Origin: Phyllosticta citribraziliensis
Lineage: Eukaryota
Length of the DNA: 64,000 nt
Assembly: GCF_038025025.1 (NCBI RefSeq)
Contig: NW_027117344.1
Coordinates: 992,001-1,056,000, forward strand
Direction of reading: 5' to 3'
Within the stretch, counting starts at the first letter, position 1. Each line of letters starts with the position of its first letter. Below, piece by piece: positions 27,186 through 60,777 of the stretch. The notes under the pieces are model-generated. The model was given only the letters and a program-made list of their open reading frames with translations, did no database searches and had not been told where the DNA came from. A program made the position numbers and the translations under genes.

Positions 27186-27520
27186 TACTATAACTTATAA
27201 GATTCTTATTTTATAGGTTAGGGCTAAAGGTAAACTACTAGAGAATATATATATATATCTTAATTAAATATAATATATTAAAAGAATAAAATATAAAAGA
27301 TACTTACTTCCTATCTATTTCCTAGTCTTACCTTTATACCTTTCTATCTCTAGACCTTTATATAAGGGTTAATAGTTATTATTAGGTTAATTATAAAGGT
27401 AAGGTATTAATAGGTTATTATAATATATTAGCCTAAGGCTATAGTAGCTAGTAGCCTATAACTATATAATACTAGGTTTATCTATACTAGTATTAGTACT
27501 TATATAGATATATAAATACC
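27186..27520 (-). repeat. Family-A LTR (variant), directly abutting the next LTR
   Basis: Aligns with 27521-27911, 37887-38365 and 45744-46134; lacks about 44 bp of the internal subrepeat region and its last ~10 bp merge with the next LTR. Confidence 0.8.
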
Positions 27521-27911
27521 TATTATAACTTATAAAGTACTTATTTATAGGTTAGGGCTAAAGGTAAACTACTAGAGAATATATATATATCTTAATTAAA
27601 TATAATAAGTTAAAAGAATAAAATATAAAAGATACTTACTTCCTATCTATTTCCTAGCCTCCCCTTTATACCTTTCTATCTTTTAACCTTTATATAAGGA
27701 TTATTAGTTGTTATTAGGTTATTTCTAAAGGTAAGGTATTAATAGGTTATTATATAGTATCTATCTAAGGCTATAGTAGCTAGTAGTAGCCTAAGATATA
27801 GATAGTATTTAGCCTAAGGCTATAGTAGCTAGTAGCTTATAACTATATAATACTAGGTTTATTTATACTAGTCTTAGTACTTATATAGGTATATAAATAC
27901 CTATTATAATA
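27521..27911 (-). repeat. 3' LTR of element A1 (391 bp)
   Basis: Termini tattataac...ttataata (RIP-converted TG...CA inverted ends); followed by a C29 tract, i.e. a polypurine tract on the minus strand. Confidence 0.85.
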
Positions 27912-27916
27912 TATAC

Positions 27917-27948
<32 letters not shown>

Positions 27949-28119
27949 GAGAAGCTAGAATTATAAGAATTAGTAGCTATAGGTACTTATATAGGTATAG
28001 ACTTATAATATATAGTAGTAGTAATTTAGTAATTTAGGAATTCTATATAGTTATAAAGTATAATTATTAGTCTAGCTTTATTACTATACTATCTTTCTCT
28101 ATTACTATCTTCTATTACT

Positions 28120-28880
28120 ATATAACCTATAGAAGGTTACTATCTACCTTAGCTATATCTAGAGCTCCCTACTAAAGTATATTATTATCCTACCTAATTT
28201 AGCTATAATCTAGTAAACTAATAGTTATATAAAGGCTTAAAGGAGCTATACTCTACTAAGAGTAATAAAGAAGTACTAGTAGATTATTAGCTAGTTACTT
28301 ATTAGCCAGTTACTTATTAGGACTCCTTACTATTATATAATACTTATTATACTATTCTACTATTATATAGTATTACTTATTACCTATTATAGTTACTACT
28401 TACTTAGAGAGCTATTCTTACTAGTAGTATCTATTAGGACTATTATATAGAGTAGTATTATAGTAAGTAAGCCTTTTATCTTAAGAATTATTACTAATTA
28501 TTATTTAGATTCTATAGGACCACCTTATATCTAGGTAGCTTTATATATTTAGGTTTTACTACTTTATTACCTAATCTTACTAACTAATATAGTTATAGAG
28601 GGATAAAATACTAGGGTTACTTATATATATTATAAAGCAGTAAATTAGTACTAAGTAAGGTGAGTTAATTAGCTAATAATTAATAACTATAAGGTAGAGT
28701 AGTAGAGAGGATATAGAGCTATAGCTAATTTAACCTATAGCTTACTTAGGTATATATACTACTATATAACTAAGGTTTAGCTATCCCTATACCTTAGTAT
28801 CCTTATAGACCTTATACCTACTCTACTATCTATCTACTATTAATTTATCTTATTACCCCCCTCCCCTTTAGGTCCTTAAC
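28120..28880 (+). pseudogene. Shorter homolog of the antisense accessory gene in A1
   Basis: Homologous to A2 38549-39030 with an intron at the equivalent site (28463-28508), then diverges; no DUF3716-like part seen. End position is approximate. Confidence 0.5.
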
Positions 28881-31800
28881 CTAAGGACTAGCTATTAGGT
28901 AGGTATAGTCCCTTTTTATTATTTATTTAATACTAATCTAGGATAGTCTTAGCTACTCTATTAAATAAGCTATTATTAGTATCCTACTAAGTTATATTAG
29001 GTAGATATCCTATTTAATAAACCTAAAACTATAGTATACCCCCCCTTTACTTATTTATCTAGGTATCTAGGACCTCCTATATATACTACTCCTCTTTACT
29101 CTTATTATTTAGCTCTAGTAGTAGGGGTAGCTCTTATTACCTAGATAGTAACCTAATATTATATTAATATAATTATTCTATATTAAATTAGTTTATAATA
29201 TAAGAACCTTATAGTAAGTCTAATATTACCTAGTTACCTCTTATAGAGTCTACTTAATATAGCCCTAGATTAGGCTATCTAAGCTTCTAGGGGTATCTAG
29301 TATCTATATACTTTACTTTAATAAAGATAAGGTTATTCTCTTAAATATTATAAGTATATTAGTATTTATTAGCTTAGTATATTTATCTCTCCTTTATAAG
29401 TATAAGTACTAATTAAGTCTTTAACTAGATATCCTCTATTAGTTTTACCTATTCTATAGCTAATACCTTAGCTCTTAATTTTAACTTTAGTCTTACTTTA
29501 CTATAATTAAAGTTTATATATAGTTTAAAGCTATAATATATAAAGAAGGGGGATATACCTATAGAGGTATTAACTAATATATTAGTTATAAGTTTAGTAA
29601 TTAGGAGCTATATATCCTAGTTATCTTATTACTAGTTAATAAAGCTATATAAATACTTTTTAAGCTCTTAGTTAGCTTATTTAGTTTATCTATCTAACTA
29701 TAGGTAATAGGGAGTTATTAGCTTAGCTATTATCTTTAGTTACTATAATACCTCTCTCTATAAGTTAGTAATAAACTATAGGCTATAGTCTAAGATAATA
29801 GTCCTTAATAGGCTATAGAGGCTAAAGACCTACTTAATTATTATTTTAGCTATTTAAGCTACTTCTATCCTACTATCTTCTATATTATACTTAATATAGT
29901 ATTTAGATTTACTAGATTAGTTATATACTATAAGGATAGTATTATAACCCTACTTAGTCTTCTTAAGTCTAGTTATAAAGTCTATAGTAAGGTCCTCCTA
30001 TAGGTACTCTCCTACTAGTAATAGCTATAGTAGGCTATTTATCTTATTATACTTCTAGCTATAGCTATAAAGTATATAGTTCTTTATAAATTAGGTAATT
30101 AGTTCCCTTATCTTTAAGAAATAATACTAGCTTAATACTATAGGGTATATTCTAGCTATACCTAGATATCCTATTACTAGCTACTTATAGATATACCTAA
30201 GTAAGTAGATATATAGATTATCCTTCTCTAGGATATATAACCTATTAGCTATATATAGTAAGCTATTATAGAGTATATATACTTTATACTCTCTTACTTA
30301 CTTATAAAGAGAGTCTATCTTTAGTATTAGCTTATAGTTATACTATTTAATTACTTTAATAATATCCTCTAGGTCTATTAGATATTTACTTTAGGTATCT
30401 AGTTAACTAGTAACCCCTTTAGGGTCCTTTATCTAGGTATTACTATTATCTTTCTTTCTATTAGTTATTAGGTTTACTATACTAGTAGAAGATAAAGTAA
30501 GTAGGGAAGGAGTATTATAATCTATCTCTCTTAAGCTTAACCTATTAATTAAGGTCTACTCTTCCTATTTATAGTTATTATTATTATTATTTATAAATTA
30601 TATTAGGAGAGGGGGGAATATAGAGCTAATAAGTAGTATTAGCTACTTATTCTCTAGCTTTACCTTAGTATATTCTAGGTTATCTTTAATAATATTATCC
30701 TTATACTCCTTTAGAGGGGTATAGAAGGGAGTATACTTATTATTAGATTTATTTATAATAGAATTAGCCTAGTCCTCTTTTAAGAGCTTTAGGTCCTACT
30801 ATTTATAGGACTTATCTAATCTTTTAGGGGGAAGTAGTACTTAATACTAGTACTAGTTATAATTATTATTCTTAGTTACTTAGTCTTATATTTAGTAGGT
30901 AAGAGTATTAGCTTTACTATTTACTTTTCTAGGTTAGTAGATAATTTTAAAATAGTATCTTACTAGTTCTTTATTCTATTAAATCTAATACCTTTAGAGC
31001 TTCTTAGTTATTATAAACTATTATAGTATCTAGTAATTAGTATATATAGTAAATAGTCCTAGATCTACTAACTTTAACTCTAGCTCCTAGGCTTTAAGTA
31101 CTATAATAATAGCTAATAATTCTTTATTATAGATTATATAATTTATTTTAACTAGAGTTATAGTATAGGAGAAAAATACTACTAGGTATATCTATTTATT
31201 AATCTTCTAAGAGAGAACCCTACTAATATTAATATTAGATATATTAGTTTCTATAATAGTCTTAAGCTTTAGGTTAAAGTAGTATAATATAGGTATACTT
31301 ATTATAGTATCCTTAAGAGCCTTAAATACCTACTACTATTCTAGTCCCTATATAAATAGGATATCCTTTCCTATTAGTTATATTACTAGCTTAGCTTTAC
31401 TACTAAATCTATAGATAAAATACCTATAAAAGTTTATAAATCCTAAGAATAATTAGATATTATATATAGAGTAAGGGGCTTACTAACCTATAATTACTTT
31501 AATCTTTATAGGGTCTATTCTTAGTCCCTTAGTAGTAATAATTACTCCTAAAAACTTTATTTCTTATATATAGAAATTATACTTATTAATATCTACTTAT
31601 AAGCCCTAGTCTTAGAGATATTTTAATACTTTATAGATTTACTAGTAGTATTAACTAAGTATCTTACTATAGATAAGTAAATTATCTAGGTATACTATAT
31701 AAAACTTATTTAGAAACTCTATAAGGTATTAGTTAATAAGGTACTATTAGACTATAGGTCTATTAGTAATACTAAAGGGTATTACCTTATAATAATAGGT

Positions 31801-33341: not shown

Positions 33342-36300
33342 TATCGCAGTCCACAGATAGTTAGGGATGCCTTAGGTAAGCAAGGCAGGTACTAGCTAGT
33401 AGGCTTAGTAGTATAAGTAAGTAGATAAGAATAAGTAGGGCCCTAGGGTTAAGATAGAAATAATAATAATATAATCCTTACTTAAGAAAAGATATCCTAA
33501 CTAAACTTATAATATCTTTTAGTAGCTAAAAGTACTATAATACTTCCTTTTATTATAGTATCCTCTCTATATCTAGGACCTTTATTACTACTAATATATA
33601 AATACTATAAGTCTACTTCTACTAAAACCTAGGAAGATCCCCTTAAAATAGCTAATAATATATTTCTATATAATACCTAGTAAGGATCTCCTTTCTTATA
33701 TAACCTAGTACTAGTATTATTATAGTAGGACCCTTATTTCTACTATACTTACCTCTTCCTTTAATACTTAGTACTAGTATAAGGAACTACCTATAATATA
33801 GTCCCTAAATAATAAGTTTACTATATTAGTTTTAGAAGAGGATATACTATCTATTTAATAATTTAAGGCCTTCCTCTATTATAGTAAATATAAATAATAG
33901 CTTAAATAAATTACTCTAGTAATAAGGACTTATATTAACCTTATTATAGAAATATTTAAACCCCTAGGTAGTATAGGAGTATCTACTTAATAAATTATAG
34001 CCTCTTAAAGGTACCTTAATTATCTAGTATACTAGGACTCTATAAGAGGTATAAACTAGGCTACTTTTTAGTAAGTCTTAGAATAAGTTAATACTATTTA
34101 TACTAAACTATTCCTAGAGAATTACCTAGTAGTTATAGAATAGGAGTATATAGAAGAGGCTCTAATTAAGGGTATAAGGACTATAATACTAAGTATACTA
34201 ACCTCTACTAATATAGTAGGTTTACTACTAAACCTAGTCCTAATTATACTATATAAGGAGGTAGGCTAATATAATATAAGTATAGGCTTAAGGGTATCTT
34301 AGTCTTTATATAATCTATTCTAGTACCTTTCTCTAATTATATTAGAATATCCTACTATACTAGAGGTATTAGTTCTAGGTATAGTCCTTAAAGTACCTTC
34401 TTAGCTATAAGTTAAGATAGTACCCTAATTACCTTTAGGGCCTACTATAATTACCCTAGAAGTTATACTAAAGTTAATTTAGAAACTATTAAGACCTACT
34501 CCTTCTACTAGTAGCTATACTATACCTAAATAGGGAAAGGGCTAATTAGTTACCTACTTAATAGATCTACCCTCTTTTTAGGTATAAATACCTATTACCT
34601 TATTTTATAGATAACCTTAATTAAAATCTCTATACTATATATTAATTTATTTATAACCTATACTATCTATAGACCCTTAATAACCTATTTTACTAATACC
34701 TATACTAACTTAAAGATACTTATCTTCTTTATATTACTCTACTTCTATATATACCTATTAATAACTCTAGTTATAGATATATATAATTATAAGGCTATAC
34801 TAGCCCTAAGATAAGTAGATAATACCTCTTTAGACTTTCTAATTAAAATCTTTTAAAGGAAAGTAGCTAGTTACCTATACTAGTAGCCTACTTATAGATA
34901 ATAAGCTAGAATATAATCTATAGAGTCCCTATTCTTTTATAGATAATAATTTTAAAGACTAGTATATTCTACTAAACTTTAGTAAAGGTACTAGCTATAT
35001 TTATAAAGACTAGTTTAGATAACCTCCCTTCTTACCTAGCTATAAGCTTCCTTATAGCTATTCTTACTAGCCTTTTAAATAATTATCTAATATTTTCTAG
35101 AGTAGTATAGGCCTAGATTTTATTTAGATCTTTAGCTAATATCTATATAGTAGTCTTCCTTTCTCCTACTAATAGCTACTAGGAAACTAGAATCCTTCCC
35201 TAAGGTATATATACTATAACTAGCTACCCCTATATAATATAATATTACTATATATATATAACTAGTATAGTACTATAAACTAGATTAAAGAGATCTAGTA
35301 GCCTATTATAACTTTAGAATCTTTAGGAGTAAAGCTAGATAAGCTCTAAGATATATTCTCTAAATAATAGAAAGTATAGATAGTAAACCTTACTATAATA
35401 AATAAAGGGGTTAATAAGTAACTTAAGAAGCTTAATATATACTTATCTATACTTAAGATAAGTATACCTTAAGATAAAGGTAAGGTACTACTAAGATTAC
35501 TATAACTATAGAAAGGGGACTATTTCTTCTATAAAAACTAGAAATAGAGATACTAGGAAAGGTATACCTAATATAAGATAGAGGAGCTACTTCTATTAAA
35601 TTCCCCTTCCCTTAAGGATAGGGATAAAGAGGATAAATAGTCTATTACCTTTTAATTTATTCCCCTATAGGGTATAGGAGATAATAATAAGCCTATCCTC
35701 TATAATAATAGGTACCCTCTACTACTTAGCTTATTAAGTAATAATAGATCTAAAGTTCTATAACCTCTATTAACTCTAGCTATTTTACTATAAAGATAGA
35801 GGACTAAACCTATATTATTATCTTAATAGATAGGCCTTATACTACTAAGATAAGAATAGTAAGATCTAGTATATAATACTTATAGGATAGTATAGACTTA
35901 TTAGTAGGGAAGGCTATAATAAGTATATTAATAGGAAGAAGCCTAGTAACCTTAATATTAATAAGATATACCCCTAGGTAATAGGAGGCCTTACTATTTA
36001 TAGTTATAATAGACTACTTTTCTCTATATATAAAGATATCCTAGTTCCTAAGGGTATAAAGTAGTACCTTTATAAGTAAGAAATATAGGATAGAGAAGGC
36101 TATTATACTTTTATAATAAATTATATAATAAGAGGTAATATACTATTAGTAGAGCTCTATATATTTACTACTACTCTTATAAAAAATAGGAATAAGTAGT
36201 CTATAGGTACTAGGTTCTATACTCCTAAAGTAGGAGTAGGTTAGTACTAATATAATAATCCTAATAATAATAATAAGATAGAACTTATAGAGATACTTTA

Positions 36301-37473
36301 AGGTATACCCCCTCTTAATAAGAATATAATATTATAGGATATAAAATCTAAAGGCCTAGATAAGCTTATTTTATAGGTTTACCTAGACTACCCTAACTAT
36401 ACTATATTTATAGTAGATACTAATAATACCCTACTTATAACTTAGGATAAGCTACTTTTAGGTAAACCTAATAATAATAGTAAGTATATTAGATCTAATA
36501 CTAGTATAAAAGACCCCTTAATCCCTAAGGATAGTCCTATTAACTAAGATAATATTATTAATCTAGGTAAAGCTACTTCTCTAGAGTACTTAGTAAACTA
36601 TATAGTATATTAATACCTTAACTTAGGTAAAGTAGGCTCTCTCTACTAATATATAGACCTAATAGCTATACTCTTTATAATAGAATCTTACTAAGCTATA
36701 TACCTTATTATTAGAGGAATTATCTCTAATAAGTTTATTACTCCTATAGTAGTTAATAACCTTACTTTCTATATAGGATTAAACTACCTAATCTAATATA
36801 TTAGGGAGGACCCTCTAGAATATATATAGGTTATTAGACTACTTACTCTATAACTACTTATATTATATATATTATAGGATATAGATAGCCTAGAGTAATA
36901 ATTCCTAGGTACTAATATTAGGTTTACTAAATAGTTTATAGGCTATATTCCCTTAGGATACCTTTATCCTAATTTCTATATAGATATAGGTATTACTATA
37001 TATTATATACCTATACTAGGAGAAGATAAAAGTAGTTATAGTACTAATATATAGAAAAACCTCCTTATCTAGTTATTAGCCCTACCTTATAATAATAATA
37101 TAATAGGTAGTAAGGACTAGTTTAATATAGATAAAGATAGAGATACTAGTAATTAAATATATCCTAGTATAGATCTATTTCTTTCTTTTTAATTACTTCT
37201 TTTTTCTTTCCTTATTTATCCTAGAAGGGGGATATTTCTTAATAGGTAGAGGAGGATAGTAAATTCTAAGTTAAGGATAACTCCTTTTTTTAGCTACTAC
37301 TATTATAGTTTATAGATAGTTAGGGATACCTTAGGTAAGTAAGGTAGGTATTAGCTAGTAGGCTTAGTAGTATAAGTAAGTAGATAAGAATAAGTAGGGC
37401 CCTAGGGCTAAGATAGAAATAATAATAATATAATCCTTACTTAAGAAAAGACGTCCTAACTAAACTTATAATA
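33342..37473 (+). mobile_element. LTR element C, 4132 bp, internally deleted / non-autonomous, inserted in the B leader
   Basis: 173-bp LTRs at 33342-33514 and 37301-37473; 5-bp TSD ATACT at 33337-33341 and 37474-37478. No RT, RNase H or integrase motifs found inside. Confidence 0.88.
35690..37156 (+). pseudogene. RIP-mutated 3' ORF remnant of family C (~490 codons, unknown function)
   Basis: One continuous protein-like frame with no retroelement enzyme motifs; homologous to 61095-62563 on the minus strand in C'. Confidence 0.5.
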
Positions 37474-38155
37474 ATACTCTATAGAATAATAATACTATAC
37501 TATTTAACTTAGGTTAGTTATATTTTTATTAAGTATAATATTATTCTAGGTATTTCTATCTATAAAGTATAGGGGACAAGCCTAGATAGTTAATTCTATA
37601 GTTTTTATATAGTTATATTATAGATATTAGATTATTAAGGCCTATTAAGTATCTAGAACTATTCTATTATATTATAAGGTTAGTAGTTTATATAATAAGT
37701 TATAAAGGTAGATTTAGATATAATTATATAATAAATTTAATAGCCTACCTATAAGAACTATAAGTTCTTCTAGTAGATTAGGAAGAAATAGATAAGGAGG
37801 AAGAGGTATATTAGGAGGAGATAAAGGGAAAGAATAATAATCTAGTTCTTATAGTAGTAGGTACTCTCTTAGGGGCTAATAGTAGGTATTATAACTTATA
37901 GAGTTCTTATTATATAGGTAAGGGCTAAAGGTGAACTGCTAGAGAATATATATATATCTTAATTAAATATAATAAGTTAAAAGAATAAAATATAAAAGAT
38001 ACTTACTACCTATCTATTTCCTAGCTTTCCCTTTATACTATTCTACCTCTTATCCTTTATATAAGGGTCCTTAGTTATTATCAGGTAAGTTATAAAGGTA
38101 AGGTATTAATAGGCTATTATACTATTTCTACCTAGGGCTATAGTAGCTAGTAGTT

Positions 38156-38265
38156 ACCTAAGGTATAGCTAGCTTTTACCTAAGGTATAGCTAGCTTTTA
38201 CCTAAGGTATAGCTAGCTTTTATCTAAGGTATAGCTAGCTTTTACCTAAGGTATAGCTAGCTTTT
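38156..38265 (+). repeat. Five tandem copies of a 22-bp unit (acctaaggtatagctagctttt) inside the A2 left LTR
   Basis: Five contiguous units, the fourth with one C>T; the right LTR has one unit, which accounts for the 88-bp LTR length difference (479 vs 391). Confidence 0.93.
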
Positions 38266-38548
38266 ATCTAAGGCTATAGTAGCTAGTACCTTATAACTAT
38301 ATAATACTAGGTTTATCTATACTAGTCTTAGTACTTATATAGGCGCGTAAATACCTATTATAATATGCCCCCCCTAAAGAGAAGCTAAAATTATAGGAAT
38401 TAGCAGCTATAGGCACTTATATAGGCACAGACTTATAATATATAATAGTAGTAATTTAGTAATTTAAGTATTCTATATAGGTTAAAGTATAATTATTAGT
38501 CTAGCTTTATTACTACTCTATCTTTCTCTATTACTATTTTCTATTACT

Positions 38549-40036
38549 ATATAACCTGTAGAAGGTTACTATCTACCTTAACTATATCTAGAGCTCCCTA
38601 CTAAAGTATATTATTATCTAGTTAAATTTAGCCATAATCTAGTAAACTAATTATTATATAAAGGCTTAAAGGAGTTATACTCTACTAAGAGTAATAAAGA
38701 AGGTCCTATGCCTGCTGCGCCTGCTATATATTATAGTCTAGTTTATTAGGATTTACTACTATTATATAAGACTTATCTAGTTAAGTCATTATTACGCGGC
38801 ATTATTTATAATCTATTATAGTTACTACTTACTTAGAGAGCTGTCCTAGCTAGTAGTATCTATTAGGACTATTATATAGAGTCCTAAGGTAAGTAAATCT
38901 ATCTCTTTAAAGATTATTACTAATTATCTAGGTTGCTAAGTAGCTTTATATATCTAGGTTTTACTACTTTATTACCCTATCCTACTAACTAATATAATTA
39001 TAGAGGAAAATACCTAGGTTACTTATATAAATATGTAGTTAGGCTAGGCTTTACTTATTTAGCTAGGAATAGCTCTAGGCCTGTTACTTTACTAGTGCTA
39101 TCCTATAGTAGTAGGTTCTATATAATTAGTATTATTAGTTATTATATAAGGTTTATTATTATTAGCTGCCTAGCCTGCTACTAACTAGTCCACTATACTA
39201 TATTATTATTACTTTACTATTATATAGCCTATCTTAGAGGAAGAAGATAAGGAGCCTATTTATATATACTATTATTATAATCCTATAGCTTATTAGGTTC
39301 TAGTAGCTAAGTACTTAGTACCTATTAGTTTATATAATAGTAGTAATAGTAAGATCTATATTATAGTATTACTAGTTAGTTCTAATAAGGCGCCTATTAA
39401 GTAGGACTTTAAGTTAATACTTTATATTCCTTATAAGAATATAGAGAGTATTATATAAGTAAGTTTACCTTATTAATACTAGGAATTCTTAACTAACTAA
39501 CTATATAGGCTTATCTAGATAGTTCTAAAGTATAAGAGTATACTAAGTATATCTTAGCCCTAGGTAATAGTATACCTTACTTATATATTATAGTTTCTAC
39601 TTATTACTTTAACTACTTATTAGTTAAAACCTATACTAGCTTATTTAATACTTTTCTTATCTAGTATACTAGAATTAATGACCCTATTAGCTATACTAAG
39701 TATTATAATAATACTAATACTTATATATTTATTAGTTATTACTACCTATCTAGTTTCTTATAGGGCTACTATACTAACTACCTTTAGAGTATAGGTAACC
39801 TTAACTATACTATTAGTAACTTAAAGGGTATAAAGCTACCTGCCTATTATAAGAGGTATAAAGATAAAATTTATATAGGAGAGTACTTAGGCTTATATAA
39901 CTAAGCTATATCTAAGGATTAAACTAATTAGGCTTTAGTTAAGTAGGACCTCTTACCTAATAAGCTAGAGGATCTAGAAGAGACTATTTTATATAATAAT
40001 AGTTATAATAAGAAGAAAGGAAAGGGAAAGAAGTAA
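38549..40036 (+). pseudogene. RIP-mutated antisense accessory gene of A2, two introns, C-terminal DUF3716-like Cys cluster
   Basis: Introns 38889-38931 and 39459-39508 (GTAAGT...CTAAY...TAG); splicing joins the protein-like frames. Exon 3 de-RIPs to NAFLIQ..G....C..C.......F.GC...GF.QG.CANCLW......C and ends KKKGKGKK*. The start (ATA read as ATG at 38549) is inferred. Confidence 0.7.
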
Positions 40037-43000
40037 AGGGTAGAAAGTAAGAATAGGGATAGTAGGGAATAAGTAGTAAAAAGGAGAGACTAGAGAGTAG
40101 AAGTTAAGGTTAATAGTATTTATATAAAGGTAGATAGTAAACTAATTAGTCTACTTTCTATATTATTATAATATTTACTTTAGGCCTAAGTAACTTATTT
40201 TATTATTATTTTCTATTTCTATTTATAGTTCTTTTTAAAGGAAGGTAGTCTTCTATTTTTCTAGGTTTTTTAGTAGCCCTACTATAGCTAGGTATAAAGA
40301 GTAAAACTCTTTAATTTTCTATAATATACTACTAAAAGAACTTATATTATACTACTAATTATTTTAGTTATATCTAGTCTATTTAACTTAGTATTAAAGC
40401 TTTCTATATAAGACTTAGCTAGCTTAAATATAGTCTACTTCCTACTTAGACTTATCTTAAATAATTTTAGGTTCTAGTTTAGTATATTTATAACCTAGAA
40501 GCTATTCTATTTTAGCTTTATAGAGTCTATTAGTATAGAAAAGGTTAACTATCTTTATATATAAGAGAAGATTAAGGATATAGGAGGATCCTTCTATTTC
40601 TATAATCTTAAAAGGTCTAGTATTAGAGAAGTCTAATTTAAGGTTTAACTAATTAGTAGACTATCCTATTTTCTTAATATAGATATAATCCTTAACTATA
40701 AAGTCTAGTATATAATAGTATTTATTAGCTTATTAATATATATACTCTTAGGATTTAAGAATTAGGTTCTTTATAAATTTAAAAGCTTCTTATCTTCTTT
40801 TTTATAGTATTTATACTACTATATAAGCTATCTTCTCTAGTTACTAGGGGGTCTTAGTTTATTATTACTAGTTATAATATATTTAAGGGGAATATCCTAA
40901 TTTAATCTTAAAAGGTAAAAGTCTAGTAGCTTTATAAGGAAGTATTACTTATATAAGGTCTATTAAAGGTAGAAGATTAGATTAATTATTTTAGAAGTAA
41001 CTAATAAAAGGTCTTAACCTTTATATAAGGTACTAGTTAATAATCTTAGTAATACTATTAGTTTAAGAGTAATAGGATAAGTTAAAATACTATTTAATAC
41101 TAGTTAGCTTATATAGTTTATTTATAAAAGCTAAGATAAACTAAGGGCCTTAGTTAAAAAGGATAGACTTAGGATTCCTATAAATATAGTAGATATATTT
41201 ATAAAAGAGCCTAGAGACTCCTTTAGTATTAATCTTCTTTATATAAGGTAAACTAAAGGTTCTTTAACTTAATTAGTCTATAATAACTAGGATTATATTA
41301 TAGCCCTTTTAATCTTTAGGTATCTCCTTAAAATCTATAGCTAAGTATTACTAAGGTTAAATAGGTATCTCTAGGGGTTATAGAAGGCCTAGTTCTTTAT
41401 TATAGAACTCTTTTATTTAGTAGTAGATATAGTATCCTTATCTATAAATATTAATTATATAATTTATAGCTAGCTAGTAGTAATATTACTTAAGGAGTTT
41501 TTATATCTTTATAATACTAGGATAAGTAGTTATATAGGTAGTATATAAAGTATCTAGTATTCTTATATAGAGGTTATTATAATCTAGTATAAAGAGGGTA
41601 CTATATTATAATAAAAGACTATTCTTTAGTTCCTAACTATTTCTTTATTTAATATCTTCTAATAGAGCTTTTTATTTTTAGGGTTCTAATTTAGAATCCT
41701 CTCTATTTATATAGAAGAGTTTATTTAAAAATAATACTAGAGGAGGAAGGTCTTATTCTAAAATAGAAAGAGGAATAATAGTCTTTAATAGGATAAGATA
41801 TATTTCTTATATAGCCCTTATTTTTTCTTTCTAAGTCTTTAGGTCTTTTTATTTTTAAGTAAGGTAATTAATAATAATATTTTCCTTTTCTAAATAATAG
41901 GAGAATTATATATAGAACTCTATAAAGAACTTAGACTATCTAGCTTATTATTAATTAAGTTATTATTTAGTAGAGTAGTACTCTAATACTTAGTAGTCTA
42001 TAATTATAAGGAAGGGTTTTTTAAGGCTAATAAATATTAGCCTCTATTCTTCTAGTCTATTTTTAATAGCTAGTAGTTCTTTATTAGATATACTATAATA
42101 AAGTTCTATATTAGCTATTACCTTAGAGTAGAATACTACTAGTTTCTAATTATATAAAGGTTATTAGAGCTATATTAAAATACTAGTAGTAACTCTATTA
42201 CTTATATTAGTCTCTATATAAGTATTAAGAGTAGGGTTATAATTAGTAAAGAGTATATTACTATATATTAGCTTCTTAAGTTATTAAATTACCTCTTCTT
42301 CTAGAGGTCCTAGTTATTACTATTTTATCTTAGAGTATAGTTTCTCTAAGGGCTAGCTAATTTATCTATAGTTAGGGAGAAATTATTAGTAGAAATTATA
42401 GAAACCTAGGAAGGATTAAAGAGCTTTAAGGGTTTTAGGTATTAGCTAGTTTTATATAGGTTCTACTTTAGCTAGATCTATTTAAATACCTTCTATAGAT
42501 ATAATATATCTAAGGAACTTTATATAAGTAACTAAAAACTTACTCTTCTTTAGATCTATTTATAGTCCTACCTTTTATAGTCTTACTAGTACTTTCTTTA
42601 CTTATTCTTTATATTTTATAGGGTCCTTAGAGATAATAAGTATATTATTTATAAAAGCTATAATAAAATTATCTAAATACTTAAAGAGAACCTAGTTAAT
42701 AAAATATTAGAAGGCTACTAGTCTATTATTTAATTTAAAGGGTAGAGTATAGTATTTAAATAAACTATACCTTATATAGAAAGTAATTTTATCTTTAGAA
42801 TCTTTAATAAAATAAATATAGTAGAAAGCTTATTAAATATCTAGCTTTATATAAATCTTACCCTTTCTAATATACTAAAGTAACTTAGTAATAAGAGGAA
42901 GGGGGTATAAATCCTTAGTAGTTTATTTATTAAGTTATTAGTAGTCTATATAAAATCTCTATCCTTTACTAGGCTTTTTTACTACTAGAATAGGAGAAGT

Positions 43001-46000
43001 AAAGGTAGTAAAGCTTTTAATAATAAAGCCCTTTTAAATATTCTTAATAATATACTCTTTTATAGCCTTAAGCTACTCTAGAGATATTTTATAGAAAGGA
43101 CTAGGGGGAAGCTCTAGTAAAATCTTATATATAAGAGATATTTTATAATTAACTCCTATATAATAAGGTAGTAGCTTATTAGACTCTATTTTAGAGAATA
43201 TATCTTAGAAATCCTTATAAGTAGTAGGTAGCTTAGAAGCTAGTAGTTCCTTAGTTTCTTTATCTTTAATAGCTTATTAAACTTATATAAGGTTAATAGT
43301 ATAGATCTCTATTAGTATAACTTATATTTTATATATAGAAAGCTTAAAGATATCTTAAGTTTAAAATTTAATTCCCTTAATAACCTATACTAAGAGAAGA
43401 AGATATTTATTAAAGTTTTTATCTCTATAATCTATATCTACTTAGTATTCTTTCTATAGTATATTACTTTATATAGAGACTTTTAGTAGATATAAAAGAT
43501 ATTAAAAGGATTAGTTAACTAGTAGCTATCTTTAGACTAGTTTATATTATTTATAGTCTAGAAGAATATTATACTAGTTAAAAAACTATTACCTAAGAAT
43601 TATATTATTCTAGCTAATATTATAAATAAAAGTATATATAGAAACTATTTAATCCTAGAAATAAAGTTATAAATAAAAGTAGAAATTAACTTTCTTATTT
43701 ATATATTAGTTAAATCTAGTAATATTAAGCCTATTACCTATTATTTTCTTTTTTATAGTACCTATAGACTAGAGAGTTAATAGTAGCTTAGAATAGATAA
43801 AACTTATACTACTAGTATTAGTATTAGCTAGGGTATAAACTTCTAAGGTATAGCTATTAGATATAATTAAGGTTTATATAATAAAGGGTATATCTCTAAT
43901 AAAGTAACTAAGATTTATATAAGAACCCTTAATATATACTACTTTAAGTTTAGACCTAAGGTAGGAGACTTTACCTAGGCCTTATTATTTTCTAATAATA
44001 ACTATTCTTTATTATTTATATAAATATCCTTAGTACTCTCTTCTTCTATTAACTCTATTACCTTTATCTCTAGTTATAGGTATTATCTCTATAAATAGCT
44101 AAACTAGCTATAGTAATTATATAGTCTAATCTCTATATAGACTTCTACTTTACCCTTATAGGTTATATTATATAAGGAAGCCCTTAAGAAAGATTATACC
44201 TAAGTATATCTAAAAGATAAAGTACTTATACTATCTAAGGTAGTAGTCTTTACTCTTTCTTATTATCTCTTCTTAGCTTATTCCTTATATAAGGTAAGTA
44301 TTAGTTTTCTATAGTTAGAGTAGTAGTTATTAAGACTTTAAGTAATAGGATAGGCTTATTAGAGGTACTTATAAAAATTAATATTCTTATCTTACTCTAT
44401 AGTAACTATATAAGTTTAGAGGAGTAGATCTATTATATTATAAAAGTCTTCTTTCTATTATTCTTAAAGAAGATCTATATCTAAGGCTAATTATATAAAG
44501 TTTAATTAAAATTTTTAAAGGTCTATAAGAATATAATATATAAGTAAGTATAACTACTTCTTTATATCCTTATACTTATATAGACTCTAGAGGAGATTAT
44601 CTAAGAATTTAAAGATATCCTTATCTAGAGTAACTTTATTAGCCTTTATATAAGAAGTAAGAAATAGAGTTAAGTATTATAAGACTTCTCTACTAATATA
44701 AGAGATAATATATTCTATAATATTCTATTTAGTCTCCTCTACTATACCTTTAATAAAATAGTTATAGTTTTATTTAATTTTATTTTAAATAAGGAGTATT
44801 TAGTATTTATATAAGGGGTCTTCTCTATTAATAAGAAGAGGAGGATTAGAAACCTTTCTATTTTAGTATTTCTTATTTAAAGAAGAAGTAGAGGTCTTAG
44901 TAGTAGTTTCCCTTATATAGATAGAAGGAGGTCTAAGAGTCCTTTATACTCTACTAGTAGAAGGATTTTATAAGAGGGTAATAGGTCTTAGGTTCTAGCC
45001 TAATAAAGAGGGCCTAATATATCCTTTCTTTAAGGCTTCTCTTAGGCTATTAGTATAGTTTAAGAGTATTTATTTAAGAGCCTAGTTTTACCTTTTTATA
45101 TAATTTAATTACTACTATACTTAAGGCTTATTTAAGGATATAATCTTAGATTTAAATTAATTAATATTTAAGTATAGTACCTTTATAAATACCTCTATAA
45201 CTAGAGCTTATATTATATAAGTTAGTCCTAGGTCTTAAGTATATTCTCTTATCTCTACTACTATAACTATATAGAAGTTATAAAGAAGAATAGGAGGAGC
45301 TCTTCTTTTATTATTATTTAATAGAGGTCTAGGGTTATATAAATCTTTAGTTCCTCTATATAAATTTTATTAGGTAGATTAACTAGTACTAATACCTTTA
45401 GTAGTACTAGATATATTAGCTTTATTCTTAGTTATATTATCTTTATAGTCTTCTACTTAGAATATCCCTTAAGTAGGTTATAGATAGGATACCTTCTAGA
45501 TATTTATATACTACCCTATAGCCTTAACTAAAGACTTCTATAATTAATATATACTTAATACTCCTTAGTCCTTAGATAATACTAATATACCTAATAAAGA
45601 TAACTTAGGTTTACTAGGGAAAAGTAATAAGTAGTCTTATATAAGACTATAGCTATATATAATATTACTTAGGTTAAATATTATAATACCTTTATAGGTA
45701 AAGAAGTAGAATAGAGCTAAAATTTAGAATAATCTTTTATATCTATTATAACTTATAGAGTTCTTATTATATAGGTAAGGGCTAAAGGTAAACTACTAGA
45801 GAATATATATATATCTTAATTAAATATAATAAGTTAAAAGAATAAAATATAAAAGATACTTACTACCTATCTATTTCCTAGCTTTCCCTTTATACTATTC
45901 TACCTCTTATCCTTTATATAAGGGTCCTTAGTTATTATTAGGTAAGTTATAAAGGTAAGGTATTAATAGGCTATTATACTATTTCTACCTAGGGCTATAG

Positions 46001-49000
46001 TAGCTAGTAGTTACCTAAGATATAGCTAGCTTTTACCTAAGGCTATAGTAGCTAGTACCTTATAACTATATAATACCAGGTTTATCTATACTGGTCTTAG
46101 TGCTTATATAGGCGCGTGAACGCCTATTATAATAGTAGGGGCCTATAATTACTTAAGAAGGACTATCTATAGTACCCCTATTACTAGTAATTAGTACTTA
46201 AACTCCCTTATAAGGTATAGTACTAGCTATAGGTTTATTTAGACCTTTTACTAGGCTAGGTATACCTCCTATAATTATACTACTATTAGGGATAGATAGT
46301 AATAAAATAATATAGCTAAGCTAAGCTAATTAGCTAATACTAGATACTATAGAAATAACTCTCCCCTAGTCTAGTAGGTAGTTATTAATACTAATAGAAG
46401 CTAACTAATACTATATAAGAATAGCCTCTCTAATATATATAATCCTAATAAGCTAGATACTAGTACTAAAGTAAAGGCTATAGTTTAGGGGAGATAATAT
46501 ATTATTATTCCTAGAGATATATAAATACTTCTATACTATAGCTAGGAGTCTTTTAGAAGAGTTTATACTAAAGCTAGTTTAGTATTATAAAACCCTAATT
46601 AGCCTAGAAATCTATTATATTATTAAGTTCTAGACTAGAGACTAGGAAGGTCTAAAAGTCTAGATACTAGTATAATATAAGAATTAAGATACTAGTATAA
46701 TTAGTAGGAACTAGAGCTATATTAAGAACTTAGTTAAGAGATATAAGGACCTCTATTACCCCTCTAAGGTAGATAAGTTCTTTAGACTTTATAAGATACT
46801 TAGTAATAAGGTAGTAGAAGAAGGATATATTAATAAAAGCCTATAAAAGATATAGTTCCTTAATACCCTATATATAGATATATAAACTAGGTTCTTATAA
46901 AAGGGGTATTTAGCCTATAGAGCTAGGAATATTTAGTATCTCTAGTTATATATTAAGGCCTAGCTAGAATATAAATAGTATATAGTATTATACTCTATAG
47001 ACTTACTAGAGGTTATAAATATAGTTATATACTATATTAAGGGGCTAGACTATATTATAGACCCTATACTAGTAAAGAGAGGATACCTCCTAAGGTCTCC
47101 TCTACTACTTATAGTATTATCCTCTAATAGCTCTTCCTTTATAACTATAGCCTTAAATAGATAGTTAACCTCTAAGACTAGGACCCCTTTAGTAAAGAGT
47201 AATAATACTATAGTTAGAGACCTAATAGATAAGCTAGCTAAGATATATATTAAATTAATCTAGGAGGCTACTAATTATATCTATAAATAGCTAGTAGATA
47301 GTAAGAAGTATAGGTATATTATAAATAATAGGGACCTATATATAAGGGTTATCTAGTTATTATTTCCCTATAATAGCTCTATTAGGATAGGCTAGCTAGC
47401 TAGATAGTATATACTACTACTAGGATAATATACTCTATAAGTAGGTCCTAGTCTTTTACTAGTAAGGCTATTACTACCTAGGATAGCTCCTATAGGCTAA
47501 CCTTAATATAACCCTAACTCTTATAACTAGGTAGGACCTACTAGTTTAAATATAAACTAAAGTATAGGAATAGGAGAATACTAGAGTTATAATAAGATAG
47601 GCTATATAGTTAGGAGTTATCCTATTTTATTACTATTTATATATACTAGCCTTATATCTATTAGTTAAAATAGATATATCTAGGACTTTAATAGCTAGCT
47701 AATATTAACTTATAAGTAGAATAAATAGCTAGATATTAAGAAGTACTTATAATATTAGGGGTAGATAAATAATAATAATTTACTAAAAATACTACTAGTA
47801 CTAGAATAATAAGTAACTCCTTACTAGGCTAGGGGAGAGTTATTATCTTAATCTATAATAAATAAAGAACTATAAGGATATTAGCCCCTACTATAAATTA
47901 ATACTAGATATAATATACCTTTAGACTATAGCTAATATAACTAAGATTAATATAACTAGGACTAAATCTAGTATACTTAGATTAACTATACTTAGGCTAA
48001 TATAGAGGATAGCTAGCCTTATTTCTATTAGATTTACTATTATAATAAAGGGATAATATATAGTATATACTATTTTAAGGCTAAAGTACCTCCTAGAAAT
48101 ATAATTTTTATAAACCTAATAAAGATTATAAAATATATAAGGAAGCTAAAGAAGCTAGCTAGGAGAAGAGGAGCTAAAATCTTATAAGTAGTAGTTAATA
48201 AAATAGCTATTAATAAATAAGTTAGGAATATAGCTAAGTAGGTAATAATTAATAAGACTAGGAATATATCTAATAAGGATATTCTAGGTATAACCCTACT
48301 AGTAAATATACCTTAATAGCTAAGATAACTAGCTATTACTAGTCTACTAGATAGTAATATTAAAGAACCTACTATCTCTAGTAAAGAGCCTACTTAGGAG
48401 CCTAATATAGATAAACCTTAGAGGTAATAGTAGAAGATACTAATAAGGATATATCTAATATTAAAGAAATCCTATAAAATAAGTAAAGTATTATACTTAA
48501 GGGATTAGAGAGTAATAAGCTAGAGCTACTTAGTAAAGGGGCCCCTCCTAAGTAGTACTAGGTTAAAACTATTATATTTAGAGACCTATTCTATTATAAA
48601 TAGTATAAACTAGGCCTAAATAGCTAGAGATATAGAGATATCTTTAGTAAGGAGATTATTAGATATATAAAAGGAATCCTTAGCCTATATAATAATATAT
48701 AGAAGTTATTTTATACTCCTATTAGTACTAAGATTATAGAAGAGGTCTAAGAAATACTTTATAATAACCTATAGGTATTAAATAAATACCTATATATAAT
48801 AGAAGACCTATAGAAGCTAATATATACTATATATATAGAACTAGTTAATAATATTAAAGGGTACTAGTTTAACTCCTCTAATAAGCCTATAGAATTTAAC
48901 TTCTCCTAGTATTACCTATTTAAGTAAGAGGATTATTTCCTAGATAGGATCTTTATATATTTAAATATACTAACTAATATATTAGTTACTAAGGGTAAAA

Positions 49001-58125: not shown

Positions 58126-60777
58126 CTATAGGTATAGATATTAGAAGGATCTTTAGATCTAAAAATAATAGGATTATCCTTCTTAAAATCTAAGATAGGC
58201 TCCTATTTATATAACTAAGGTATCCCTAATATAATATTATAGCCTAGGATCCTTATTATATTAAATTTAATATATTCTTAGTATTATTATTTATATTCTA
58301 GGGCTATATTGTTCATTTCATATTAGACCTTTCTATTTTTAGTATTTACTATAGTTCTATCTATAGTATAAAGCTTATAAGGATTTTCTTTTAACCTCAT
58401 TAATAGTTTATACTTATTATAGAATCTAGAGTCTATAAAGACTCCTTAGGCTCTAGTATCTATTAAAGCTTAGGCTTTAATTCCTTTAATTTTAATTATT
58501 ACTACTAAGTTCTTATAGTAGTCTTTCTTCTTATCTTTATTAAATAAAGTAGAAGAGAGGGACTTAATATTATCTAAAATAGTTTTAGATTATATTAAGG
58601 TCTTAGTAGTCCTTATAGCTAAGACCTTCTAGAGTTTTTTGCCTATTTAGGTATTAATTTATTTATATTTTTATCCTAGGAATTATTAGTATCTATGGCC
58701 CTTAGTAAGTGGTTATTATTATTTTTATAGCTAGATTTAAAGCTAGACTTATAGCTAGTTTTAGGCTTATATTAATTATTAGGCCTATAGCTTTTATATC
58801 TATTAGAAGTGCCCCTAGATTTATTATTACCTCTAGAGTAGTTAGATTTTCCTCTATAGGCTTTAGATAAATCTATAGGATCCCCCTAGGAACTAGAATT
58901 ACCCTTAGAATAATAAGAGCTAGTATTCTACTCCTAATACTACTAATAGCTCCTACTATTAATCCTTATAACTATATCTATAAGAGATGCTAAGATTTTA
59001 TATAGATCTTATCTAGCTAGCTTATCTTTAATCTTATCCTTTAATCTAAGTTTATATTAGTATATTAATACTGGTTTATTCTATTCTAATTTAGTATAAT
59101 ATTATTAGAATAGTATTATATAGTTAGTAGCTCCTTTATATTATTATAGAGCAGTTAGGTATTATTCTACCTCTTTAGTTTTATTATAGATACTAAATAT
59201 CTCTCTAATAGATTTAGTATATTATTAGTAATTATTAAAAATATTAGTAGTTATTTCTTAATATTCCTAAAGTTCCTTTTCTTAGAAATCTCTTTTATAA
59301 GGTTTAAACTAATTAAATATAGTACCTCTTAGAAAACTAGAGGTATAGATTACTTTATCTACCTTATCCCTAAATTATAACTTATAGAATTAGAAGTAAT
59401 TAGCTACTTAAGCTAAGTAGGGCTCTAGCTTAACCCTATCCCTATAGAAGTTATTAGATTTAGAGACCTTTATATTAGATCTCCTATACTCTATAGGAGT
59501 ATCTATAGTATTAGATAATATAATACCCTATATTAATACTAAAGGCAGTATATTATTAGGATTATTACCTAGAGTAGCCTAGGCTAACCTTTAATTAAGC
59601 TTATTAATCTCTATCTACTAATTTATAGTAGATTATTAATATTTATTAAAGGTAGCCTATATATTAGCTTCTAGGTTTCTAATATATTCTCCTAATTTAT
59701 AGTTTATAGGAGTATCCTCTATATTATATAAAAAAGATACTTATATATTTTTCCTATATAAAGTTCTATAATAATAGGATATAAGTCTTTTTAATAATAG
59801 ACTAGAGAGTTAGAGCTCTCTAGGAGTAGTAAAGCTATAATAGTATACTTTAGGTAATCCTAATTAGGTAATTACTAAGGCTACTTAGTACTTAACTAAT
59901 AGTTCTAGGTATCTAGATATAGTACTTAATAAGTAATAATAAATAATAACCCCTAAAGATAGTTATATATACCTAGCCTAATCCTTTATTATATAGGACT
60001 TATATATACCTAGATAATAAAATACTAAGGTAGAGTATAGTAGGTAGAGCTATATAACCTAATATCTAGTCTATTAGCTTAAATAATAGAGAGGTACTTC
60101 CCTATTAAATAAGAGGTATAAGGAAGGGGAGTAGACCCTTATAATATATACTACTATAACTAAATAACCTTAGACTATTTTCTAAAGGCTACGTAATAGA
60201 TAATAATATAGACTAAATTATTATATACTTAGTTATAAGAAATATATAGAGGTAGAATAATAATCCTTAATAAAGAATTAATAAATAAAATTACTACTAA
60301 AGAGAAAGCTATTCTAGAGGGCTAGGAGGCCTCTTTATATACCTTTCTAGTTAGTACTAAGCTAATCTACTAGCTAGCTATTAGTAAGACTTATTTATTA
60401 GTTATAAGTTACCTCTAACTCTTAACTATAACTCTTACTATTAAAGTTCTTCTAGACTAATTTATTTAGATCTAGATTATAGACTATAATACTACTATAT
60501 CCTTATTCTAAGGAGTGGTCTTAAAGTCTAAAATATAAAGGAGATAATATAAACCTTAACTAGGTTAAGTACCCTAGATTTACTAGAGGTATTAACTTTT
60601 CCTTCTCCTTTTTACTTTCTATTTTAGAAGGAACTAACTATACTATTTTTCCCTAACTAGGACTATTCTTTAGTCCTTATATAGCTCTTCCTATCCTAAT
60701 ATTAATAACTAACTTTTAACTATTAATTCTCTTAGAATAAACCTTTACTTTAATTTATAAGAAGGGATATCCTCCTT
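58126..60777 (-). mobile_element. Element A1, 5' part (protease, gag); 5' LTR displaced beyond the window
   Basis: De-RIP protease ALIDTGAQGVFID at ~58435-58470 and gag GDPMDLSK at ~58865-58890. Same strand and correct domain order to continue the RT fragment ending at 32466. Confidence 0.75.

What the first reader, a model, noticed from the sequence alone, without database searches (positions are those of the whole stretch)
38549..40036. Antisense, intron-containing DUF3716-like gene inside chromovirus A2
Seen: between the PPT and the pol end, on the strand opposite gag-pol, are two canonical fungal introns (43 nt, 38889-38931; 50 nt, 39459-39508). Neither length is a multiple of 3, yet removing them joins the protein-like frames exactly (GPMPAAPA, then EEEDKEP, then INDPIS). 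Inference: exon 3 codons GGC TAC TAT ACT AAC TAC CTT TAG (39764-39787) de-RIP to G-x-C-A-N-C-L-W, preceded by AFLIQxxG and CxxC. That is the pattern I recall for fungal DUF3716 (PF12511); a basic KKKGKGKK tail follows. Established: introns persist through retrotransposition only when antisense to the genomic RNA. This looks like a stably carried accessory gene, possibly a Zn-binding nuclear regulator, transcribed from the 3' LTR side.
Basis: partly seen in the sequence, partly recalled or inferred. Interest (0 to 1): 0.8.

Follow-up and report, generated by a model that had tools for sequence, protein, structure and literature searches.

The report
Backward zinc-finger gene in fungal retrotransposon
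A heavily mutated fungal retrotransposon carries an extra intron-containing gene on its opposite strand, probably encoding a zinc-binding DNA regulator; such backward genes are known, but this kind of protein in them may not be.

Summary
The observation largely holds. A complete, RIP-ruined Ty3/Gypsy element (37887-46134, GTAGG target duplication, pol on minus) has 1.9 kb between pol and the PPT, against 250 nt or less in 38 of 42 relatives with a called PPT. On the plus strand lie two canonical introns. Exon 3 is clearly coding, exon 2 moderately, exon 1 and the start codon are unresolved. The region is multicopy in three runs from three studies, and less-mutated contigs read G-R-C-A-N at the predicted motif, so the cysteine reading is partly observed. 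DUF3716 membership is not shown: the mutated read-through hits nothing, and no intact copy or seed could be obtained. No spliced RNA was seen. Two un-RIPed relatives (L023, L004) carry non-homologous antisense genes with six-cysteine clusters at the same place; L023's splices to an open 205-aa frame. Best reading: a family-wide accessory gene for a nuclear zinc-cluster protein that regulates the element in trans (function inferred). Precedents: Botrytis Boty brtn, plant antisense ORFs, DUF3716 cargo in Zymoseptoria REP9. New variant of a known kind; interest 0.5.

The parts
37882..37886 (.). Target-site duplication GTAGG, left copy
   Evidence: the same 5 bases lie at 46135-46139
37887..38365 (-). 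3' LTR of element A2 (479 nt; four more 22-nt repeats than the 5' LTR)
38368..38376 (-). Polypurine tract (G run on the element strand)
   Evidence: same shape as PPTs of relatives
38558..38888 (+). Exon 1 (start uncertain: 38558 reads ATA in other copies and may be a RIPed ATG; an intact in-frame ATG at 38708 is absent from A1). Frame weakly supported
38889..38931 (+). Intron 1, 43 nt, phase 1; 46-nt homologue in A1 at 28463-28508
38932..39458 (+). Exon 2, low-complexity region and acidic patch (EEEDKEP); 15 stops in 175 codons, 11 of them TAG; frame moderately supported
   Evidence: conflict
39459..39508 (+). Intron 2, 50 nt, phase 0
39509..40036 (+). Exon 3, clearly coding on the plus strand; the TAA at 40034-40036 may itself be a RIP product
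39692..39808 (+). Inferred six-cysteine cluster, spacing C-x2-C-x11-C-x10-C-x2-C-x8-C; the fourth Cys is seen as TGC in less-mutated contigs, the other five are Tyr codons read as RIP products
40010..40033 (+). Basic tail KKKGKGKK, possible nuclear localisation signal (inference)
40229..43351 (-). pol: RT, RNase H, integrase and C-terminal region of a chromovirus-type Ty3/Gypsy element
45744..46134 (-). 5' LTR of element A2 (391 nt)
46135..46139 (.). Target-site duplication GTAGG, right copy
27777..28630 (+). Element A1: shares the LTR end, PPT, exon 1, intron 1 and the start of exon 2 with A2 (80%), but has a different pol (57%) and no exon 3 cluster

Best explanation
A2 is a dead copy of a multicopy fungal chromovirus family that carries a third gene on the opposite strand between the PPT and the pol end. 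Shown: position, two introns, a coding exon 3, family-wide presence, one cysteine of the motif. Inferred: RNA polymerase II transcribes it from a promoter at or just inside the 3' LTR; because the introns are antisense to the genomic RNA they are not spliced from it and are copied at each transposition; the spliced message encodes a 410-460 aa nuclear protein with a disordered N-terminal half, a six-cysteine zinc cluster of DUF3716/Zn2Cys6-like type and a basic tail. Most likely job: a DNA-binding trans-regulator of the element's own LTR or chromatin. My odds: real spliced gene 0.85; zinc cluster 0.8; DUF3716 member 0.6; trans-regulator of the element 0.4. In this copy RIP has destroyed it.
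For: Exon 3 frame by codon model and as one of the most stop-poor stretches of the AT-rich block. Less-mutated contigs read G-R-C-A-N and R-A-F, differing from the window only by six RIP-direction transitions each. 28, 28 and 26 of 30 bins covered in X1, X5, X6. The three A1/A2 gaps inside the gene are 3, 21 and 3 nt; the one internal 1-nt gap is upstream at about 38482. L023 has an intact three-intron antisense gene with a six-Cys cluster, open for 205 aa after splicing; L004 has an ATG-started antisense six-Cys exon. Both fall near an Atlas cluster in which 28% of 123 members carry PF12511 (scores 0.78, 0.77: leads only). A DUF3716 protein's Neurospora orthologue NCU05718 binds double-stranded TTAGGG directly (PMC4650311 and PMC10776026, passages).
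Against: No Pfam, phmmer or word-search hit for the read-through exons. No intron-skipping joint in four runs; the two X8 pieces that span introns keep them, and X8 is only guessed to be RNA. Exon 1 frame and start unresolved, exon 2 frame disputed by the purine/pyrimidine model. The stretch upstream of the gene is as conserved between A1 and A2 as the exons (3 transversions in 181 against 3 in 144), so there is no selection signal. Six-Cys spacing alone is common in RIPed DNA (39 hits, null mean 18.6); the fuller pattern (1 hit, 0 of 200 nulls) was fitted after seeing this sequence. A1 transposed with only the 5' part of the gene, and most relatives lack any such gene, so it is not needed for transposition in cis. 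L023 and L004 products have no PF12511 hit.
Confidence: 0.6

Rival explanations
1. The gene is real but is cargo that acts on the host (development, sporulation, telomeric chromatin), not on the element; it was captured from a host or transposon DUF3716-type gene and rides along.
For: REP9-1, a DUF3716 gene on a DNA transposon, lowers asexual reproduction in Zymoseptoria tritici (PMC8232023, passages and section 2.4). PSC58 and NCU05718 are host genes. Patchy presence: L023 has such a gene, its sister L022 does not.
Against: Family-wide presence in three runs and recurrence of the same domain type at the same place in separate lineages fit a benefit to the element, though they do not exclude a host effect.
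Confidence: 0.2
2. What matters is the antisense RNA, which pairs with the genomic RNA and tunes silencing; the protein is secondary.
For: Proposed for antisense ORFs in PMC7264820 (parts 1-2 read). In L004 the antisense unit runs into the pol end.
Against: A coding exon 3, frame-keeping gaps and a retained cysteine motif are not needed for an RNA effect.
Confidence: 0.08
3. The 1.9 kb is the remnant of a DNA transposon (REP9/IS3EU-like, with a DUF3716 gene) that inserted into an ancestor of the family and was amplified passively.
For: DUF3716 genes are known transposon cargo. Insertion would explain the patchy distribution.
Against: No inverted repeat of 60 nt or more bounds the region (shorter ones were not sought), no transposase remnant was detected, and the gene points inward from the LTR in A2, L023 and L004 alike.
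Confidence: 0.07
4. The introns and motif are chance products of RIP, which turns GCA into GTA, CAG and TGG into TAG, and floods frames with Tyr codons.
For: Seven other strict intron-like signals in the AT-rich block, 39 six-Cys-compatible spacings, no database hit.
Against: Less-mutated contigs read C-A-N where predicted; exon 3 beats all other frames by over 20 bits; intron 1 is conserved in A1.
Confidence: 0.05

Closest known systems
Botrytis cinerea Boty/BcGypsy1 with the antisense gene brtn (Zhao et al. 2011; seen only as cited in PMC7264820, PMC8365987, PMC4227169)
   Same: Fungal chromodomain-bearing Gypsy element with an antisense gene between pol and the 3' LTR, also in Sclerotinia.
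   Different: No domain is given for brtn in the passages read; homology to this gene was not testable. I recall that brtn transcripts are spliced, which would make the intron feature already known; the paper is not held.
Plant antisense ORFs between pol and 3' LTR (aORF-3R: Grande gene23, RIRE2, Retand, PvRetro13; PMC7264820)
   Same: Position, orientation, presence in most copies; Grande's product is nuclear and has its own promoter; a regulatory role is proposed.
   Different: Plant hosts; no zinc cluster is described in that review.
DUF3716 (PF12511) proteins: Zymoseptoria REP9-1/REP9-2, Fusarium PSC58, Neurospora NCU05718
   Same: Recalled motif G-x-C-A-N-C-x-W with an upstream CxxC and FxxC; transposon cargo in REP9; DNA binding by NCU05718.
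   Different: REP9 is a class II element; membership of this gene is not shown by HMM.
Gal4-type Zn2Cys6 cluster (PF00172)
   Same: Two CxxC pairs each followed by one further Cys (spacing recalled).
   Different: First loop is 11 residues here (10-11 in L023 and L004), not the fixed 6; no PF00172 hit.
Antisense and accessory regulators of complex retroviruses (HTLV antisense gene; Tat, Rev), as cited in PMC7264820
   Same: Extra 3' gene, antisense promoter at the 3' LTR, nuclear regulator.
   Different: Analogy only; no sequence relationship is claimed.

Membership tests
Ty3/Gypsy LTR retrotransposon | RT, RNase H, then integrase in pol | tested here: met
   RVT_1 and RT_RNaseH over cut-off; profile of 42 relatives matches positions 240-1279 of 1304 at E 4e-218
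Ty3/Gypsy LTR retrotransposon | Two LTRs, 5-bp target duplication, PPT | tested here: met
Chromovirus | Chromodomain at the integrase C-terminus | tested here: inconclusive
   No Chromo hit on the RIPed frame; many close relatives carry PF00385 and the profile match covers that region
Antisense ORF between pol and 3' LTR (aORF-3R, brtn type) | Coding sequence antisense to gag-pol between pol and PPT | tested here: met
   exon 3 plus-strand frame 8.4 bits against -13.4 next
Antisense ORF between pol and 3' LTR (aORF-3R, brtn type) | Present in many copies of the family | tested here: met
   430, 148 and 122 short contigs in three runs; none spans the stretch, so linkage to pol in each copy is not shown
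Antisense ORF between pol and 3' LTR (aORF-3R, brtn type) | Own antisense transcript | not testable with these tools
   No run on record as RNA holds the stretch; contigs give no strand
Spliceosomal introns | GT-AG ends, branch point, fungal length | tested here: met
Spliceosomal introns | Removal seen in RNA | tested here: inconclusive
   No skipping joint; X8 pieces retain both introns but X8 may be DNA or genomic-sense RNA
DUF3716 (PF12511) | HMM score over the 22-bit cut-off | tested here: inconclusive
   No hit on the read-through, in which the Cys and Trp codons are mutated; no intact copy or seed obtained
DUF3716 (PF12511) | G-x-C-A-N-C-x-W motif with upstream CxxC and FxxC (recalled, from no call) | tested here: inconclusive
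   G-R-C-A-N seen in 2 contigs; the other cysteines and the Trp are only RIP-compatible
Zn2Cys6 (PF00172) | C-x2-C-x6-C first half (recalled) | tested here: not met
   Inferred loop of 11 residues
Zn2Cys6 (PF00172) | Binuclear cluster fold | tested here: inconclusive
   Only the L004/L023 cluster was modelled; pLDDT 62.7, best Z 2.5

The most novel reading that the evidence does not exclude
Ascomycete chromoviruses have repeatedly and independently recruited spliced antisense genes for six-cysteine zinc-cluster DNA-binding proteins (A2 family, L023, L004) into the slot between pol and the PPT. These act as element-encoded trans-regulators, a fungal parallel to the accessory regulators of complex retroviruses, and the many orphan DUF3716-type genes in fungal annotations are largely mobile-element cargo.
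Probability: 0.3. Interest if true: 0.8.

Novelty: new variant of a known kind. Interest (0 to 1): 0.5.

Why it matters
Antisense ORFs in LTR retrotransposons are frequent but have no known function, and the review read (PMC7264820) found no clear database similarity for them. A recognisable zinc-cluster domain gives a testable function: DNA binding at the LTR or at host targets. The intact relative L023 offers a working copy for that test. It would also link DUF3716, already tied to sporulation (REP9-1) and telomere-repeat binding (NCU05718), to a second class of mobile element. Six literature searches listed no paper whose title or abstract start places DUF3716 or a zinc cluster in a fungal LTR element, one more listed nothing, and the single PF12511 paper was seen only as a listing. 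Most subscription papers, including the brtn paper, are outside the library.

Tried and rejected
No whole genome is held. Pol search of viral contigs: one search used a wrong frame and is void; one search found 0 relatives among 23 stretches. Exon 3 read-through: 0 hits among 1.84 billion representatives and 0 of 65 word candidates. L004/L023 cluster alignment: 0 of 13 candidates. Hunts for a DUF3716 seed: 0 of 5 and 0 of 71 prokaryote genomes over cut-off; 9 motif matches in viral contigs, none with the upstream cysteine pattern on inspection. No RNA holder listed. Structure model and fold searches gave no support either way. The bacterial promoter scan is not applicable. The RT-RNase H tree was the quick version; A1 and A2 joined as long branches, so their placement is not used. 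No sequence similarity between the 3' regions of A2, A1, L023, L004 and L018 and other loci, apart from one 55-nt AT-rich match. Supplements of PMC8365987 held as text had no brtn detail; its figure supplement and those of PMC8232023 were not seen and may bear on novelty.

Full report
Setting. The window is fungal: gene-rich DNA at about 55% GC up to 26.8 kb, then an AT-rich block at about 25% GC in which CpA and TpG are almost absent, the mark of heavy repeat-induced point mutation (RIP). No genome is held. Element A2 runs from 37887 to 46134, with LTRs of 479 and 391 nt and a GTAGG duplication on both sides. Its pol is on the minus strand: RT and RNase H pass Pfam cut-offs, 93 proteins match at E up to 1e-20 among 7997 candidates scored, and a profile of 42 of them covers 40229-43351. 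The closest by RIP-compatible residues are L001 and P0004 at only 0.69, so no intact copy of this family was retrieved.

The observation. RIP can create such signals, so I measured the background: 10 strict matches in 37.2 kb on two strands, 3 of them these introns and the A1 homologue, against a Markov mean of 5.9. A codon model trained on the RIPed pol frames of A1 and A2 found the right frame of six in 86 of 90 held-out 525-nt windows. Exon 1 is unresolved. A purine/pyrimidine model agrees on exon 3 and on the second half of exon 2 but prefers another frame for 38932-39230; it cannot tell strands apart and found pol's frame in only 17 of 33 windows. An alternative with a shifted donor and a third intron is possible but needs more assumptions.

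Other copies. Four of the eight listed runs were laid. X1, X5 and X6, from three studies, cover 28, 28 and 26 of 30 bins with 430, 148 and 122 short contigs; none spans the stretch. Two X1 contigs continue after 39766 as CGC TGC GCC AAC T, so the motif reads G-R-C-A-N in a less-mutated copy; all six differences from the window are transitions in the RIP direction. This is the one cysteine seen directly. The other five and the Trp are inferred from TAT, TAC and TAG codons, giving C-x2-C-x11-C-x10-C-x2-C-x8-C. None of the 40 differences shown (of 186) falls on a GT or AG. Of 12 gaps shown (of 33), two pairs in exons cancel, one 3-nt insertion is in intron 1, and single-base gaps at 38617, 38780 and 39931 have no partner shown. 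No joint skips an intron, and the X8 pieces retain both; X8 is only guessed to be RNA. The product would be 461 or 411 aa.

Neighbour A1. A1 shares the LTR, PPT, exon 1, intron 1 and the start of exon 2 (80%) but has a pol only 57% identical and no exon 3 cluster. Intron 1 is 46 nt there, with the same phase, and the three gaps within the gene are 3, 21 and 3 nt, while the one internal 1-nt gap lies upstream. Against this, the upstream stretch is as conserved as the exons, so the shared block is probably a recent exchange and gives no selection signal.

Relatives. Of 80 metagenome loci (the best of 568), 55 include the pol end: 38 have the PPT within 250 nt, 4 have a long gap (L004, L018, L023, L078) and 13 were not called. 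L023 has an intact antisense gene with three introns and a six-Cys cluster that splices to an open 205-aa frame with one of two acceptors tried; its sister L022 has no such region. L004 has an ATG-started antisense six-Cys exon; L018 has a 563-aa sense frame. These regions show no similarity to each other or to A2, and the label is not clustered on the quick tree (63 of 500 shuffles as low). Neither L023 nor L004 hits PF12511. The Atlas places both near a cluster with 28% PF12511 at 0.78 and 0.77, below its 0.9 guide, so these are leads.

DUF3716. The label rests on a recalled motif. The mutated read-through matches nothing, which is expected when the cysteines are lost, and no seed could be fetched. 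A pattern with the recalled anchors hits only 39692 and 0 of 200 null sequences, but I fitted its gaps after seeing this sequence. Membership is therefore untested on an intact sequence; I put it at 0.6.

How it most likely works. Shown: architecture, coding exon 3, family-wide presence. Inferred: a promoter at or inside the 3' LTR drives an antisense message; its introns survive because the genomic RNA reads the other strand; the protein has a disordered N-terminal half, a zinc cluster and a basic tail, as DNA-binding regulators do. NCU05718 binds double-stranded TTAGGG directly (PMC4650311, passages) and is the orthologue of the DUF3716 protein PSC58 (PMC10776026, one passage). I favour regulation of the element in trans (0.4) over a host-directed cargo role like REP9-1 (PMC8232023, passages and section 2.4), an RNA-only role, or a passive transposon remnant.

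Against what is known. Antisense genes between pol and the 3' LTR are described in plants and in Botrytis Boty (PMC7264820, first two of three parts; PMC8365987 and PMC4227169, passages). The brtn paper is not held; I recall that its transcripts are spliced. DUF3716 is known transposon cargo in a class II element. What I did not find in print (mostly listings only) is a zinc-cluster or DUF3716 product in this slot, or its recurrence in separate chromovirus lineages. Verdict: a real gene, dead in this copy, a new variant of a known kind; interest 0.5.

Noticed in passing
L023:4503-5285 (minus): Intact, un-RIPed antisense gene between pol and PPT: three introns, six-Cys cluster, probable coiled coil and two basic patches; open 205-aa frame after splicing. 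Its sister element L022 lacks the region.
   Followed up: partly
L004:4281-4546 (minus): Antisense ATG-started exon with a six-Cys cluster, then a probable intron, running into the end of pol.
   Followed up: partly
L018:6825-8513 (plus): 563-aa sense frame between pol and PPT, with no significant Pfam match; L018 sits in the same branch as P0004 and L001.
   Followed up: partly
L048:11056-11748, also L053, L060, L061: Sense frame after pol with a WCCH motif (PF03716, 27.9 bits in L048) in one Gypsy subclade.
   Followed up: no
window 27186-28900: A1 shares LTR and about 700 nt of 3' region with A2 but has a different pol: looks like an exchange of LTR and 3' module between two families. A partial LTR copy lies in tandem at 27186-27534, and the PPT is expanded to a run of about 29 C.
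   Followed up: partly
window 38144-38291: 22-nt tandem repeat in the 3' LTR, six copies against two in the 5' LTR; possible factor-binding sites.
   Followed up: no
window 38702-38811: 110-nt block that partly escaped RIP and differs from A1 by 24 transversions at equal length; lowest depth in the laid runs, so probably subfamily-specific.
   Followed up: partly
window 35687-37474 and 60777-62563: Two inverted copies (96%) of another repeat, with an intron-like signal at 36846 and 61404 and a stop-poor frame; not identified.
   Followed up: no
L081-L088: Eight contigs with Gypsy pol inside prokaryote genome assemblies, up to 432 kb long; probably mis-binned eukaryotic DNA.
   Followed up: no
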